From positions 1 through 56,369 of the forward strand of contig JAQVYC010000003.1 in assembly GCA_028708805.1 (NCBI GenBank): a DNA stretch of 56,369 bases, read 5' to 3'. Position 1 is the stretch's first letter, and the number at the start of each line of letters is the position of its first letter. The notes below the pieces were generated by a model that saw nothing but the letters and a program-made list of their open reading frames with translations, did not search any database and was not told where the DNA came from. Source of the DNA: Clostridia bacterium (lineage in GTDB: Bacteria; Bacillota; Clostridia; Christensenellales; UBA1242). Shown here in pieces: positions 44,312 to 47,046 of this stretch. Position numbers and translations under genes: made by a program.

Positions 44312-44399
44312 TGGCGGAAGAAGGCGGATTCGAACCGCCGGTGGTTTAATCCACACATGTTTTCGAGACATGCACATTAGACCGCTCTGACATTCTTCC
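44312..44399 (-). tRNA. tRNA-Ser (anticodon CGA)
   Basis: Minus strand reads GGAAGAATGTCAGAGCGGTCTAATGTGCATGTCTCGAAAACATGTGTGGATTAAACCACCGGCGGTTCGAATCCGCCTTCTTCCGCCA. Features: 7-bp acceptor stem, anticodon loop CTCGAAA, long variable arm, T-loop GGTTCGAATCC and an encoded CCA. Confidence 0.92.
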
Positions 44400-44514
44400 A
44401 TAAAATTAAAACCATATAAGTTTACTATATAAAAAAGAATTTGTAAATAGTAAATCAAAATTAAAGAAAGAGAGCTTAAAAATACAACAATTTTCTTAAA
44501 AAATTGAAAAAAAA

Positions 44515-44544
44515 TTGACTTTATTTTTATTAAAGTGATACAAT
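44515..44544 (+). promoter_or_regulatory. candidate promoter giving a leaderless DUF1538 mRNA
   Basis: TTGACT, an 18-nt spacer, then TACAAT preceded by TGA. The -10 ends 7 nt before the A of the ATG at 44551, and there is no SD. Confidence 0.45.
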
Positions 44545-44550
44545 CATAGT

Positions 44551-46353
44551 ATGGCTTTCGTGAAGCAATTTAAGAATAGTTTAATTGCAGTCTTAGGAAT
44601 TTTTGCACTGGTTTTTTTATTGCTTCTAGTTGGAGTTATTCCGTATGACGAATTTATCTTTGGTAAATTTTTTGTAGGGGCAAGTTTTCTTATTATAGGA
44701 CAAACCGTTTTTTTGGTTACCATAGATAAAAGTATTATAAAGATAGGACGAAGTGTCGGTTCTAGCCTTATGAAGTTTAAAAAACCTTGGATTATTATTT
44801 TTTTTGGCTTTTTGTTTGGTTTGGTTTCCACAGTAGCTGAGCCTGATGTGCAAGTTTTAATTAGCGAGTTATTAGATGTTAATCCTTTTATAAGTTCACT
44901 TCTCTTAATTTCTATTTTTGGAATTGGGGCAGGGTTATTTGTTGGATTAGCTTTAATTAGAATATTAAAAAACATAAAACTAAAATATATCTTATTAGTT
45001 TTATATTCTATAATTTTTATACTTGCCGCATTTTGCCCAGAAAATTATTTAGGGCTTGCCTTTGATTCGGGTGGTGTTTCAACAGGTGCTATAACCGTGC
45101 CCTTTATCTTGTCGCTGGTTATTGGTATTTGTGCTATAAAAAGCGGAAGCACAAAAGATGATAATTTCGGTGCAGCAGGTATTGTTTCAACAGGTCCTAT
45201 TATAGCAGTTTTAATATTGGGGATTATCTTTGGAGCTCCCGAAGGCACTTACTCTTATGTTCCACTTAACATACCTTTTTTTGATATGTTTTTTAATCAA
45301 ATTAAAGAAGTCGCGCTTGCACTTTCTCCACTCATTTTAACATTTATCGTATCGCAACTCACTTTTCTAAAATTACCTGCGAAACAAACAATTAAAATTT
45401 TAATTGGATTGCTGATTGCTGGCATAGGACTAGTTTTCTTTTTAACAGGAATATATTATGGTTTTTCAACAATGGGAACATTCATTGGTGAAGCAATCAC
45501 GAATACGGTCGCAGATTGGTTTATTCTTGTATTTGGCTTTCTTATAGGTTTTGTTATTATATTTACAGAACCTGCGGTTATTGTTTTAGTGGGTCAAATC
45601 GAAGATGTAACCGCTGGTTTTATTAAAAAGAAAACAGTTTTTATTGCTTTGGCAATCGGTGTTGCTTTGGCGGTTATGCTTTCTTTTGTGCACATATTAT
45701 ATAGCATAAGCTGGTGGTATTTTCTTTTTCCATTTTATGCACTATGTATAGCATTAAATTTTGTAATTCCCAAGATTTTTATGTCAATTGCGTTTGATGG
45801 TGGGGGAATCGCTTCTGGAACAATGTCGGTTGCGTTCATCTTGCCAATATGCATTGGAATAAGCGAGGCATTAGGACAAGAAATTATGTTGAGTGCATTT
45901 GGGGTTATCGGTTTTGTGGCAACAATTCCAATTTTCACCCTGCAAGTTCTGGGACTAATTTACAAATTGAGTAAAATGAAAAAAGAAAGAAAACTAAAAA
46001 AAGAGAAACTACTTGAAGAAAAGTTATTGAAGGAACAAGAGCAAATTCAAGGACAAGACTTAGAGCAACAACAAGGAAAAGACCTCGAACAAAAACAATC
46101 AAAAGACTTAGAACAAGAACAAGAGCAAAAACAATCAAAAGGTCTAGAACAAGAACAAGAGCAAAAACTAAAAAAAGAAAAAGACAAAGCAAAAAACAAA
46201 GAAACCCAAAAGGAACAAGAGAAACCTAAAACAAAACAACTAGAAGAACAAAATGAAAAAGAATTGAAAGAAGAAAAGAAACAAAAAGATATAAAAGAAA
46301 ATAAAGACGCAAAACAAAAAGCACGAAAGGAGGGGACAAATGAAACAAGTTGA
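44551..46353 (+). CDS. fused tandem DUF1538-family membrane protein with charged repeat tail
   Basis: 600-aa ORF with two homologous multi-TM halves. Half 1 has VAEPDVQVLI...AFDSGGVSTGAITVPFILSL; half 2 has FTEPAVIVLV...AFDGGGIASGTMSVAFILPI. A ~130-aa E/K/Q-rich tail follows. Confidence 0.7.
   Translation: MAFVKQFKNSLIAVLGIFALVFLLLLVGVIPYDEFIFGKFFVGASFLIIGQTVFLVTIDKSIIKIGRSVGSSLMKFKKPWIIIFFGFLFGLVSTVAEPDVQVLISELLDVNPFISSLLLISIFGIGAGLFVGLALIRILKNIKLKYILLVLYSIIFILAAFCPENYLGLAFDSGGVSTGAITVPFILSLVIGICAIKSGSTKDDNFGAAGIVSTGPIIAVLILGIIFGAPEGTYSYVPLNIPFFDMFFNQIKEVALALSPLILTFIVSQLTFLKLPAKQTIKILIGLLIAGIGLVFFLTGIYYGFSTMGTFIGEAITNTVADWFILVFGFLIGFVIIFTEPAVIVLVGQIEDVTAGFIKKKTVFIALAIGVALAVMLSFVHILYSISWWYFLFPFYALCIALNFVIPKIFMSIAFDGGGIASGTMSVAFILPICIGISEALGQEIMLSAFGVIGFVATIPIFTLQVLGLIYKLSKMKKERKLKKEKLLEEKLLKEQEQIQGQDLEQQQGKDLEQKQSKDLEQEQEQKQSKGLEQEQEQKLKKEKDKAKNKETQKEQEKPKTKQLEEQNEKELKEEKKQKDIKENKDAKQKARKEGTNETS
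46048..46175 (+). repeat. in-frame tandem repeats in the DUF1538 tail
   Basis: Two near-identical 36-bp units (46090-46125 and 46126-46161, CAAAAACAATCAAAAGACTTAGAACAAGAACAAGAG) sit among degenerate flanking units. They encode (S/G)K(D/G)LEQ(E/Q)Q repeats. Confidence 0.85.
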
Positions 46354-46927
46354 AGTTATTGTAACAACCGAACAAATTGCAGAAAAGATGTACGAGTTAT
46401 TTAAAAAAGCAAAAATTAATTGCAATGTTATTCCCAAATGTAATGGATTTAGCCAACACACCAACTTTTTAGAGTTTATAGGTTTTTCGGATACTAGGGT
46501 TGAAGTTCTGGTTTTTAAATGTAAAGATAGATTAAGAAAGTTTTTTTTAAAATTTCTTTTAACAAATTGTAATAAACCAAATAATGGTATAATGTTTTCC
46601 ATTGGAGGAGATAGAAGAATGAAAGCAGATAATAGAGTTTTAGTTGCGATAATTAACGCAGGGCATGGTGAAAAAGTTGCGGACATACTCAGAAAAGAAG
46701 GGGCATTAGGGGCAACAATGTTTGATGCACGAGGTGCTGGGGTTGATTATGATTCGGTTATGGGAATGAGTATAGACAGCGGTAAACAAGTTGTATTTTC
46801 GGTTATGCCGAAAGAAGTTGTTAAAAAAATGAGCAAAATTATAAAAAACACATTCAAAGAAAACAAAAACAATTGTGTAATATTTGACCTTCCTGTTTCT
46901 AATTATAATAAGCTTCACGAGAATTAA
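46340..46927 (+). CDS. tandem P-II-like domain protein
   Basis: Strong SD aggagg; the start overlaps the upstream gene by 14 nt. The second half (VLVAIINAGHGEKVADILRKEGALGATMFDARGAG...VVFSVMPKE) resembles the P-II/GlnB-like fold signature. The first half (VEVIVTTEQIAEKMYELFKKA...) is a degenerate copy. Confidence 0.6.
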   Translation: MKQVEVIVTTEQIAEKMYELFKKAKINCNVIPKCNGFSQHTNFLEFIGFSDTRVEVLVFKCKDRLRKFFLKFLLTNCNKPNNGIMFSIGGDRRMKADNRVLVAIINAGHGEKVADILRKEGALGATMFDARGAGVDYDSVMGMSIDSGKQVVFSVMPKEVVKKMSKIIKNTFKENKNNCVIFDLPVSNYNKLHEN

Positions 46928-47021: not shown

Positions 47022-47046
47022 TTGCTTATTCTAAGCAATTTTTTTA
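47022..47046 (+). terminator. intrinsic terminator after the PII-like gene
   Basis: Stem TTGCTTA/TAAGCAA with a 3-nt loop, followed by T8. Confidence 0.6.

What the first reader, a model, noticed from the sequence alone, without database searches (positions are those of the whole stretch)
44515..46927. Uncharacterised membrane module: fused double DUF1538 protein with charged repeat tail, coupled to a tandem PII-like protein and apparently leaderless
The 600-aa protein is an internal duplication of a DUF1538-type multi-TM unit. The paired motifs are AEPDVQVL/TEPAVIVL and AFDSGGVSTGAITVPFIL/AFDGGGIASGTMSVAFIL. In other genomes, as I recall, these are two separate genes followed by P-II-like genes, and the family has no assigned function. 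Here the two halves are fused and a ~130-aa E/K/Q tail with 36-bp tandem repeats is appended. The downstream 195-aa protein, with two PII-like halves, starts 14 nt inside the upstream gene behind a strong SD, so the two are likely translationally coupled. By analogy with SbtA-SbtB and AmtB-GlnK, a PII-like sensor gating a transporter is a reasonable hypothesis. In addition, the promoter -10 (TACAAT, 44539-44544) ends 7 nt before the ATG and there is no SD, which suggests a leaderless mRNA.
Basis: partly seen in the sequence, partly recalled or inferred. Interest (0 to 1): 0.6.

Follow-up and report, generated by a model that had tools for sequence, protein, structure and literature searches.

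The report
PII-partnered DUF1538 transporter, leaderless operon
Two overlapping genes encode a 14-helix membrane transporter of the barely studied DUF1538/UmpAB family and its own two-domain PII-type sensor protein; the pair is an ordinary member of a very widespread but unpublished transporter-plus-sensor module, and its local oddities are a probable leaderless mRNA and a recently expanded charged tail.

Summary
ORF 44551-46353 (600 aa) holds two DUF1538 domains, and the halves are 33% identical. A 132-aa E/K/Q tail carries 24- and 36-bp tandem repeats. ORF 46340-46927 (195 aa) overlaps it by 14 nt behind a GGAGG and is a tandem PII-like protein.

- **Fusion:** it is not special. All 26 related genomes with the family, and at least 588 genome loci, have the fused form.
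- **Family function:** one pair has been characterised, UmpAB, a Na+(Li+,K+)/H+ antiporter (2017). This protein scores far below that equivalog's cut-off.
- **PII link:** it is very tight. PII-like genes follow at once in 22/22, 78/79 and 16/16 loci checked, and two relatives fuse a PII domain to the transporter.
- **Fold and topology:** charge bias indicates a 7+7 inverted repeat. The fold has no PDB match.
- **Leaderless start:** the evidence is comparative and statistical. It is conserved in six congeners plus one same-family genome, absent in other Clostridia, and the same geometry is enriched genome-wide. No RNA data could be obtained.
- **Tail:** a recent, lineage-specific expansion.

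This scan has noted the module before, in at least 248 other genomes. I found no paper that describes the pairing.

The parts
44515..44520 (+). -35 hexamer TTGACT
   Evidence: 10/12 matches, 18-nt spacer. Identical in the 84%-identity relative L003/L004.
44536..44544 (+). Extended -10, TGaTACAAT. It ends 6 nt before the ATG, so the predicted transcription start is the A of the ATG.
   Evidence: The geometry is kept in congeners with different hexamers: TAATAT, TATTAT, TACAAT, TAAAAT.
44551..46353 (+). Gene for the 600-aa fused double-DUF1538 (UmpAB-type) membrane protein. Predicted 7+7 TM inverted repeat with N-terminus and C-terminus both in the cytoplasm.
   Evidence: AF2 model of residues 1-480: pLDDT 86.7, pTM 0.88. 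K+R bias over 68 homologues.
44608..45228 (+). DUF1538 repeat 1 (motifs AEPDV and FDSGGVSTG; invariant E97 and D172)
   Evidence: 190 bits; invariant columns.
45334..45960 (+). DUF1538 repeat 2 (motifs TEPAV and FDGGGIASG; invariant D416)
   Evidence: 195 bits.
45955..46350 (+). 132-aa cytoplasmic E/K/Q-rich low-complexity C-terminal tail
   Evidence: 132 aa here, 88 in L003, 19-47 in other congeners; the most K/E/Q-rich 50-aa window among 703 ORFs.
46048..46168 (+). 24-bp and 36-bp tandem repeats inside the tail-coding region
   Evidence: 24-bp x3.2 copies; 36-bp x2.2 copies with 93% matches.
46329..46333 (+). Shine-Dalgarno GGAGG for the PII-like gene. It lies inside the tail-coding sequence, 6 nt before the ATG.
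   Evidence: The same 14-nt overlap occurs in L003/L004.
46340..46927 (+). Gene for the 195-aa tandem PII-like protein. It overlaps the upstream gene by 14 nt.
   Evidence: AF2 model: pLDDT 83.9, pTM 0.80, two beta-alpha-beta-beta-alpha-beta halves. Foldseek top hits are SbtB, GlnK and CPII.
46340..46618 (+). N-terminal, degenerate PII-like half. It lacks the GAxGGT and RGxG motifs of the wider family and is cysteine-rich.
   Evidence: Family N-half against C-half: probability 99.9%. This clade's N-half alone: E 0.01.
46619..46924 (+). C-terminal PII-like half. It keeps GALGAT, RGAG and K149, but the B-loop glycines are lost (N178).
   Evidence: PF00543, 35.6 bits against a cut-off of 25, residues 101-190; near-invariant columns.
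47022..47045 (+). Candidate weak intrinsic terminator (7-bp AT-rich stem, 3-nt loop, U7)
   Evidence: The hairpin is present in the MFE fold, but the region's z-score is not significant. It was not found by the G+C-requiring scan.

Best explanation
This is a self-contained two-gene operon for a regulated ion transporter.

**Gene 1** encodes a 14-helix membrane protein made of two homologous DUF1538 repeats inserted in opposite orientations (7+7 TM). Both ends face the cytoplasm. It belongs to the family whose only characterised member, the UmpA/UmpB heterodimer, is a Na+(Li+,K+)/H+ antiporter. Invariant membrane-embedded carboxylates sit in the AEPD and FD(S/G)GG motifs of both repeats (E97, D172, D416). 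They are the likely ion and proton sites.

**Gene 2** encodes a cytoplasmic single-chain protein of two PII-like domains, each with a flexible T-loop-like segment. I infer that it docks on the cytoplasmic face of the transporter, one PII-like domain per DUF1538 repeat. I infer further that it switches transport on or off in response to a small-molecule signal, most likely adenine nucleotides, as GlnK does for AmtB and SbtB for SbtA.

**Expression.** A sigma-70-type promoter is placed so that transcription begins at the A of the ATG, giving a leaderless mRNA. The second gene is then translated by coupling, through a GGAGG and a 14-nt overlap.

**The tail.** The 132-aa E/K/Q tail is a recent expansion of the short basic cytoplasmic C-terminus, driven by replication slippage. 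It is probably a flexible spacer with no conserved role.

**Shown:** the domain identities, the duplication, the topology bias, the PII fold, the near-universal gene linkage, the natural fusions, and the promoter geometry and its conservation.

**Inferred:** physical docking, gating, the ligand, the cation/proton substrate, and the actual 5' end of the mRNA.

**How sure, part by part:** identity of the parts about 0.95; a dedicated transporter/PII-like partnership about 0.8; gating by the PII-like protein about 0.6; leaderless start about 0.75; monovalent cation/proton substrate about 0.45. The confidence given is for the whole picture.
For: **Identity of the two proteins**
- Two DUF1538 domains, E 1e-111. 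The halves are 33% identical, E 1e-24.
- The best NCBIfam hits are UmpA and UmpB (1.5e-35 and 1.1e-25). UmpAB function is reported in PMC5484666.
- The P-II domain scores above Pfam's cut-off.
- AF2 plus Foldseek: SbtB 6mm2, GlnK1 2j9d, GlnK2 7p50 and CPII 5d4p at probability 1.0, TM(target) 0.6-0.73.
- Family N-half against C-half by hhalign: 99.9%.

**Topology**
- Mean K+R per loop over 68 homologues alternates.
- It is opposite for equivalent loops of the two repeats: A 0.29 against A' 2.40; B 3.78 against B' 0.47; F 1.99 against F' 0.12; C-terminus 3.54.

**Linkage to PII-like genes**
- PII-like gene(s) lie directly downstream in 22/22 relatives.
- The same holds in 78/79 Clostridia loci; the exception has too little sequence downstream.
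- It also holds in 16/16 split-gene loci.
- G009 and G032 fuse a PII-like domain to the transporter's C-terminus.

**Genome setting** (assembly 92.9% complete)
- This is the only P-II hit.
- No CPA1/2, NhaC, NhaA, Mrp-type, TrkH or Amt was found.

**Leaderless start**
- The geometry is shown, and an in-frame stop lies 4 codons upstream.
- It is conserved without indels in L003/L004.
- A promoter abuts the ATG, with no SD, in 7/14 same-family loci. In other Clostridia this is seen in 1/74 loci, which is the same congener again, and 67/74 have an SD.
- Genome-wide, promoter-like sites with a -35 peak at a 6-nt spacer before first ATGs: 27 against a mean of 6.8. For extended -10 sites the figures are 14 against 2.7.

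**Tail**
- Length is 132 aa here, 88 in L003 and 19-47 in other congeners.
- The repeats are 93% identical.
Against: - **UmpAB membership.** The protein scores 123 and 91 bits against NCBIfam cut-offs of 490 and 500 for UmpA and UmpB, so it is not an UmpAB equivalog. One heterologous study of one distant pair is thin ground for the substrate.
- **No structural clue.** No structural relative in the PDB supports any transport mechanism (best Foldseek E 0.01, TM 0.16).
- **Sensor sites are degraded in this clade.** The N-half has lost the GxxGxT and RGxG motifs. The C-half has lost the B-loop glycines (N178 at a column that is G in at least 90% of 69 relatives). Nucleotide sensing may therefore be altered or lost here.
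- **Oligomeric state.** Canonical PII proteins act as trimers. How a two-domain chain would assemble is unknown.
- **Dispensability.** 10 of 24 same-family genomes show no DUF1538 gene.
- **No experimental data.** No complex prediction was possible.
Confidence: 0.55

Rival explanations
1. The architecture is as described, but the cargo is different. The DUF1538 protein in Clostridia would carry something other than Na+/K+/H+, for example bicarbonate, ammonium or a small organic anion. The PII-like partner would report the matching metabolic state. UmpAB's antiport activity would then be a side activity or specific to the Halomonas clade.
For: The score is far below the UmpA/UmpB equivalog cut-offs. 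The only structurally solved PII-like/transporter pairs, AmtB-GlnK and SbtA-SbtB, carry N- or C-related substrates, and SbtB and CPII are among the top fold hits. No fold relative fixes the mechanism.
Against: The only experimental datum for the family is cation/H+ antiport (PMC5484666). The invariant intramembrane carboxylates suit cation or proton binding. The genome shows none of the usual monovalent cation/proton antiporter families. No carbon- or nitrogen-assimilation genes are linked; the operon stands alone between a tRNA gene and orphan genes.
Confidence: 0.3
2. The membrane protein is a sensor or anchor rather than the regulated party. It would sequester or release the PII-like protein, which then acts on other cytoplasmic targets. 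Alternatively, in this reduced genome the degenerate PII-like protein has become a constitutive structural subunit with no signalling role.
For: AmtB-GlnK sequestration is used for signalling in some bacteria (general knowledge). In this clade the nucleotide-binding motifs are eroded, which fits a loss of sensing.
Against: The linkage is strictly one membrane module to its own PII-like units in about 116 loci. Covalent fusions also occur. That pattern is what one expects for a dedicated subunit of the transporter rather than a diffusible regulator. This genome has no other P-II protein and no obvious PII targets such as Amt.
Confidence: 0.15
3. The mRNA is not leaderless. Transcription would start further upstream, for example from the weaker promoter-like site at 44378-44406, and the ATG would be used without an SD by another route. 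The promoter-like hexamers next to the ATG would be a by-product of AT-rich sequence.
For: TANNNT is frequent in a 30% G+C genome. The promoter scan finds no more sites than shuffles give (9 found against 12.7 expected). No 5'-end data exist.
Against: The -35, spacer, TG and -10 all match, and the distance to the ATG is exactly that of a +1 at the A. The geometry is retained in six congeners plus G009 (same family) while the hexamer sequence changes, and it is not seen in 73 other Clostridia loci, which carry an SD instead. There is a sharp genome-wide peak at the 6-nt spacer, about four- to five-fold over neighbouring spacers. The alternative site lies inside the tRNA gene on the other strand.
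Confidence: 0.2
4. The E/K/Q tail has a function. It could be a single alpha-helix or coiled-coil spacer that tethers or positions the PII-like protein, or a regulatory segment, rather than neutral low-complexity growth.
For: It sits at exactly the C-terminus where relatives G009 and G032 carry a covalently linked PII-like domain. It is the most extreme K/E/Q segment among 703 ORFs. It is kept in frame and carries the SD of the next gene.
Against: Its length ranges from 19 to 132 aa within one genus, and the sequence is not conserved beyond the first ~25 and last ~10 residues. The near-identical 24- and 36-bp repeats point to recent slippage. Most of roughly 100 relatives manage without it.
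Confidence: 0.15

Closest known systems
UmpAB, the two-component Na+(Li+,K+)/H+ antiporter of Halomonas zhaodongensis (DUF1538, PF07556; NCBIfam NF041627/NF041628; PMC5484666)
   Same: It has the same Pfam family in both halves. UmpA and UmpB are the best NCBIfam hits. There are two homologous ~7-TM units working together.
   Different: Here the two units are one polypeptide. The scores (123 and 91 bits) are far below the equivalog cut-offs (490 and 500). The UmpAB paper does not mention a PII-like partner (zero occurrences of PII or P-II). Function has not been tested for any Clostridia-type member.
GlnK-AmtB (PII protein plugging the ammonium channel)
   Same: A transporter gene is tightly linked and co-translated with a PII-fold protein that has a flexible T-loop-like segment. 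GlnK1 and GlnK2 structures are among the top fold matches.
   Different: The partner is a DUF1538 protein, not Amt, and no Amt gene was found in the genome. The PII unit is a single chain of two domains, not a homotrimer subunit. The canonical B-loop TGxxGDGKIF is not kept in this protein.
SbtB-SbtA (PII-like regulator of the cyanobacterial bicarbonate transporter)
   Same: SbtB is the best Foldseek hit (6mm2, E 3.8e-5, TM(target) 0.73). A PII-like protein is dedicated to one inverted-repeat secondary transporter and encoded directly downstream of it.
   Different: There is no sequence relation between DUF1538 and SbtA. No SbtB-type C-terminal CGPxGC redox loop is seen in the translation. The architecture is tandem. 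The organism is a non-photosynthetic Clostridia-type bacterium with a small genome.
Antiparallel homologous pairs and their fused inverted-repeat descendants (the dual-topology route of membrane-protein evolution, e.g. SMR/EmrE-type and Fluc/CrcB pairs; general knowledge)
   Same: DUF1538 occurs as adjacent gene pairs of ~230-330 aa and as ~500-aa fusions. In the fused form the two repeats show opposite K+R bias.
   Different: Each unit has about seven TM segments and probable re-entrant or broken helices, which is much larger than SMR or Fluc units. The opposite orientation of the split UmpA/UmpB-type pairs was not tested here.

Membership tests
DUF1538 (PF07556) | Match to the Pfam model above the gathering score (22.6 bits) | tested here: met
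   371.7 bits in two stretches; 190 and 195 bits per repeat.
UmpA/UmpB Na,Li,K/H+ antiporter subunits (NCBIfam NF041627 / NF041628, equivalogs) | Score above the curated equivalog cut-off (490 / 500 bits) | tested here: not met
   122.7 and 90.5 bits. It is a homologue, not an equivalog.
UmpA/UmpB Na,Li,K/H+ antiporter subunits | Measured Na+(Li+,K+)/H+ antiport activity | not testable with these tools
   This needs everted-vesicle or proteoliposome assays.
P-II superfamily (PF00543) | Match above the gathering score (25 bits) | tested here: met
   35.6 bits at residues 101-190; 31.9 bits in the six-frame search. This applies to the C-terminal half only.
P-II superfamily (PF00543) | Ferredoxin-like beta-alpha-beta-beta-alpha-beta fold with a T-loop between beta2 and beta3 | tested here: met
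   The AF2 model has two such halves, with low-confidence loops at residues 39-51 and 133-146. The top Foldseek hits are PII, GlnK, SbtB and CPII.
Canonical PII (GlnB/GlnK) | Nucleotide-binding B-loop TGxxGDGKIF and T-loop base GxGRQ | tested here: not met
   The C-half keeps RGAG and GALGAT. Where the wider family has PGxGIxF, the B-loop here reads NKNNCVIF. The N-half lacks both motifs. The mapping onto GlnB motifs comes from my own knowledge of the GlnB sequence.
Canonical PII (GlnB/GlnK) | Homotrimer; linkage to amtB or nitrogen-assimilation genes | tested here: not met
   No Amt gene in the genome. The partner gene is DUF1538 in about 116 loci. The oligomeric state cannot be tested here.
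Tandem PII-like partners of DUF1538 (unnamed family; annotated 'P-II family nitrogen regulator') | A protein of ~195-265 aa with two PII-like halves, encoded directly downstream of DUF1538 gene(s) | tested here: met
   438 representative clusters and 796 hits. Full-length alignments exist to members down to ~25% identity. Gene position is shown.
Leaderless mRNA | The primary transcript's 5' end lies at, or within a few nt of, the start codon | not testable with these tools
Only promoter geometry, its conservation and genome-wide enrichment could be tested.
Leaderless mRNA | No Shine-Dalgarno sequence; a promoter -10 lies 6-7 nt upstream of an AUG start | tested here: met

The most novel reading that the evidence does not exclude
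The DUF1538/PII-like pair would be a third, still undescribed class of PII-gated transporter, beside AmtB-GlnK and SbtA-SbtB. It would have a membrane fold absent from the PDB. Its stoichiometry would be new for PII proteins: a single chain of two PII domains would cap a two-fold pseudo-symmetric inverted-repeat transporter one-to-one, instead of a trimer acting on a trimer. In this ~1-Mb genome the sensor has lost the canonical nucleotide-binding loops and gained conserved cysteines. It may therefore read a different signal, for example redox state, or act as a fixed subunit.
Probability: 0.3. Interest if true: 0.7.

Novelty: new member of a known kind. Interest (0 to 1): 0.45.

Why it matters
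DUF1538 genes are present in about a third of the sampled genomes of this phylum (105 of 301). In nearly every locus I inspected they come with their own PII-like protein(s). I found no paper that mentions the pairing, and no solved structure resembles the membrane protein.

If the pair works as inferred, it is a widespread regulated ion-transport system of gut and other anaerobic Clostridia. It would also extend PII signalling beyond nitrogen and carbon control.

This window adds three specific points:
- The module is retained in a ~1-Mb reduced genome that shows none of the usual cation/proton antiporter families.
- There is a clear, phylogenetically recent switch from SD-led to leaderless expression.
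- A sensor whose ligand-binding motifs are eroding offers a natural experiment on what the PII-like partner is needed for.

Tried and rejected
- **PDB sequence relatives of the membrane protein.** None were found, either with the single sequence or with a 68-sequence profile.
- **Fold relatives of the membrane protein.** No significant match. The best was VcINDY at E 0.01 and TM 0.16, so no transporter superfamily could be assigned.
- **PDB profile search with the PII-like family.** Only marginal hits: DUF2179 3hlu and PII-like 3dfe, at E 0.14-0.5.
- **Direct BLAST of the two halves of the 195-aa protein.** Not significant and out of register. The duplication shows only at family-profile level.
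- **c-di-AMP as the ligand, by analogy with PstA/DarA.** Set aside, because no diadenylate cyclase domain was found in the 92.9%-complete genome.
- **A nitrogen-regulatory role.** Set aside, because there is no Amt and no second P-II gene.
- **A riboswitch or other leader RNA.** Rfam finds only the neighbouring tRNA.
- **Literature.** Six papers mention DUF1538 and none links it to PII.
- **A programmed-frameshift fusion of the tail to the PII-like ORF.** I considered this because the PII-like frame is open 15 codons upstream of its ATG. I did not pursue it, since a strong SD plus ATG explains expression.


Full report
**1. What is there**

The window carries two overlapping plus-strand ORFs, 44551-46353 (600 aa) and 46340-46927 (195 aa). 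They lie between a minus-strand tRNA-Ser(CGA) at 44312-44399 and a convergent gene.

*The membrane protein*
- Pfam finds two DUF1538 stretches in the 600-aa protein (E 1.1e-111). The six-frame search puts them at 44608-45228 and 45334-45960.
- The two halves align at 33% identity (E 1e-24).

*The tail*
- After the last hydrophobic helix come 132 residues of E/K/Q-rich sequence.
- Its DNA holds a 24-bp repeat (3.2 copies) and a 36-bp repeat (2.2 copies, 93% matches).

*The second gene*
- It starts 14 nt inside the first, 6 nt after a GGAGG at 46329-46333.

*Signals around the operon*
- Upstream, TTGACT, 18 nt and TGaTACAAT are followed by six bases and the ATG.
- An in-frame TGA four codons upstream excludes a longer protein.
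- A weak AT-rich hairpin plus U7 at 47022-47045 may end the operon.
- Rfam finds no leader element.

**2. The membrane protein**

*Family and function*
- NCBIfam's best hits are UmpA and UmpB, the subunits of the Na+(Li+,K+)/H+ antiporter of Halomonas zhaodongensis. The scores are 123 and 91 bits against cut-offs of 490 and 500.
- The 2017 paper (PMC5484666) shows that the two DUF1538 proteins work only together, as a heterodimer. It is the only functional study of the family that I found.
- So the family is not wholly uncharacterised, but this protein is a distant homologue and not an equivalog.

*The fusion is not unusual*
- The protein search returned 2423 hits of ~480-610 aa, mostly from Clostridia.
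- All 26 of 41 related genomes that have the family have both domains in one frame of 486-704 aa.
- At least 588 species-representative genome stretches encode relatives.
- In a 301-genome sample of the phylum, 105 have DUF1538. Both split pairs (~230-330 aa each) and fused forms are common.

*Structure and topology*
- An AF2 model of residues 1-480 is confident (pLDDT 86.7, pTM 0.88).
- It has no sequence relative in the PDB and no significant fold relative (best E 0.01, TM 0.16).
- Mean K+R counts per loop over 68 homologues alternate along the chain. They are opposite for equivalent loops of the two repeats.
- That indicates a 7+7 TM inverted repeat with both termini in the cytoplasm.
- Invariant E97, D172 and D416 lie in the AEPD and FD(S/G)GG motifs. 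They are candidate ion and proton sites; this is inference.

**3. The 195-aa protein**

*Fold and duplication*
- Its C-terminal half passes Pfam P-II (35.6 bits against a cut-off of 25). The N-terminal half has no Pfam hit.
- BLAST of one half against the other is not significant.
- The protein belongs to a large family of ~195-265-aa proteins: 438 representative clusters and 796 hits with a profile, many annotated 'P-II family nitrogen regulator'.
- In a 69-sequence alignment the family's N-half and C-half profiles match each other at 99.9% probability, E 1e-32. The family is therefore a tandem PII duplication.
- The AF2 model (pLDDT 83.9, pTM 0.80) shows two beta-alpha-beta-beta-alpha-beta halves, each with a low-confidence loop where the T-loop sits.
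- The top Foldseek hits in the PDB are SbtB, GlnK1/2/3, PII and CPII (probability 1.0, TM(target) 0.6-0.73).

*Motif erosion in this clade*
- The N-half has lost the family's GAxGGT and RGxG motifs.
- The C-half has N178 where at least 90% of relatives have the B-loop glycine.
- The clade's N-half alone barely matches the C-half profile (E 0.01).
- Cysteines C34 and C61 are invariant in the six closest sequences.

**4. Linkage**

PII-like genes follow the DUF1538 gene(s) in every set of loci I examined.

| Loci examined | With PII-like gene(s) downstream | Form |
|---|---|---|
| 22 relatives of the same family or order | 22 | One tandem gene or two single-domain genes; often overlapping |
| 79 further Clostridia loci | 78 | 72 tandem, 6 two singles; the exception has only 464 nt of sequence left |
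| 16 split-pair loci from the phylum sample | 16 | 9 tandem, 5 two singles, 2 one single |

- In G009 (same family) and G032 (same order) a PII-like domain is covalently fused to the transporter's C-terminus.
- This is the kind of evidence that supports a dedicated physical partnership. The two-to-two correspondence of units suggests one PII-like domain per DUF1538 repeat; this is inference.

**5. Genome setting**

- The genome is ~0.93 Mb, 30% G+C and 92.9% complete. Its relatives are labelled 'uncultured Clostridia bacterium'.
- The whole family has 0.8-1.4-Mb genomes.
- This is the genome's only P-II hit.
- I found no diadenylate cyclase, CPA1/2, NhaC, NhaA, Mrp-type subunit, TrkH or Amt. 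The caveat is that the assembly is incomplete.
- That fits a cation/proton role for the DUF1538 protein. It argues against c-di-AMP or classical nitrogen signalling.
- The module is not found in 10 of 24 same-family genomes, so it is not indispensable.

**6. Leaderless start**

- The promoter places +1 on the A of the ATG, and there is no SD.
- In the 84%-identical relative the -35, spacer, TG and spacing are kept without indels, while the -10 changes from TACAAT to TAATAT and the sequence further upstream diverges.
- Across loci, a promoter abutting the ATG with no SD occurs in 7 of 14 usable same-family loci: six of the genus plus G009.
- It occurs in 0 of 4 same-order loci. Among other Clostridia it occurs in 1 of 74 loci, and that one is the same congener again. 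There, 67 of 74 have an SD.
- Genome-wide, promoter-like sites before the first ATG of ORFs of at least 100 aa peak sharply at a 6-nt spacer. With a -35 the count is 27 against a mean of 6.8 at other spacers. With an extended -10 it is 14 against 2.7.
- Leaderless expression therefore looks like a recurrent habit of this lineage that this operon has adopted.
- No RNA data could be consulted, so the 5' end remains unmapped.

**7. The tail**

- Its length is 132 aa here, 88 aa in the closest relative and 19-47 aa in other congeners. Only the first ~25 and last ~10 residues are alignable.
- Together with the near-identical repeats, this indicates a recent slippage expansion.
- It is the most K/E/Q-rich 50-aa window among 703 ORFs, and only three ORFs reach 60%.
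- It is cytoplasmic. It occupies the position where G009 and G032 carry a fused PII-like domain.
- I read it as a tolerated flexible extension. A tethering role is not excluded.

**8. Verdict**

- The PII-gated-transporter hypothesis is well supported by context but remains untested.
- The 'fused' and 'no function' points are not distinctive or are outdated.
- The leaderless claim is the best-supported local novelty.
- This scan has noted the DUF1538/PII module before: 314 notes in at least 248 other genomes. Follow-up agents there reached the same reading, which my own tests reproduce independently.
- No paper in the searchable library describes the pairing.

Noticed in passing
whole genome G000 (e.g. 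C16:26324+, C20:40148+, C33:13731+, C36:13759+, C38:53028+, C4:32155-, C42:16292-): About 25-30 ORFs of at least 100 aa have a full sigma-70-type promoter ending exactly 6 nt before their first ATG. This is a sharp peak, four- to five-fold over other spacers, and suggests a sizeable leaderless regulon in this ~1-Mb genome.
   Followed up: partly
L026 (G009:C25:464-2269) and L033 (G032:C53, minus strand 887-2971): These are natural fusions of a PII-like domain to the C-terminus of the double-DUF1538 protein. In G009 it is followed by a 102-aa single PII-like gene. In G032 it is preceded by a 222-aa tandem PII-like gene.
   Followed up: partly
window 46340-46618 (residues 1-93 of the 195-aa protein): The degenerate N-terminal PII-like half carries four cysteines (C28, C34, C61, C77). 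C34 and C61 are invariant in the six closest homologues. This could be a redox or metal site, but it was not tested.
   Followed up: no
G000 contigs C7 and C8, around position 1505: Two contigs carry nearly identical sequence, with one mismatch in the 56 nt printed, upstream of a 650-aa ORF. This is probably a strain variant or an assembly duplicate in the MAG.
   Followed up: no
whole genome G000: No hit was found for the diadenylate cyclase domain, CPA1/2, NhaA, NhaC, Mrp/NDH antiporter-like subunits, TrkH/KtrB or Amt in a 92.9%-complete assembly. That is an unusually bare set of ion-homeostasis genes.
   Followed up: partly
window 44400-44550: The 151-nt spacer between tRNA-Ser(CGA) on the minus strand and the DUF1538 gene holds divergent promoter-like sites: a minus-strand site at 44447-44419 for the tRNA and the plus-strand operon promoter.
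   Followed up: no
L034 (G036:C10), L071, L092: Other lineages have independently grown long C-terminal tails of different composition on the DUF1538 protein, for example a 600-aa form with a D/E/N-rich tail in G036.
   Followed up: no
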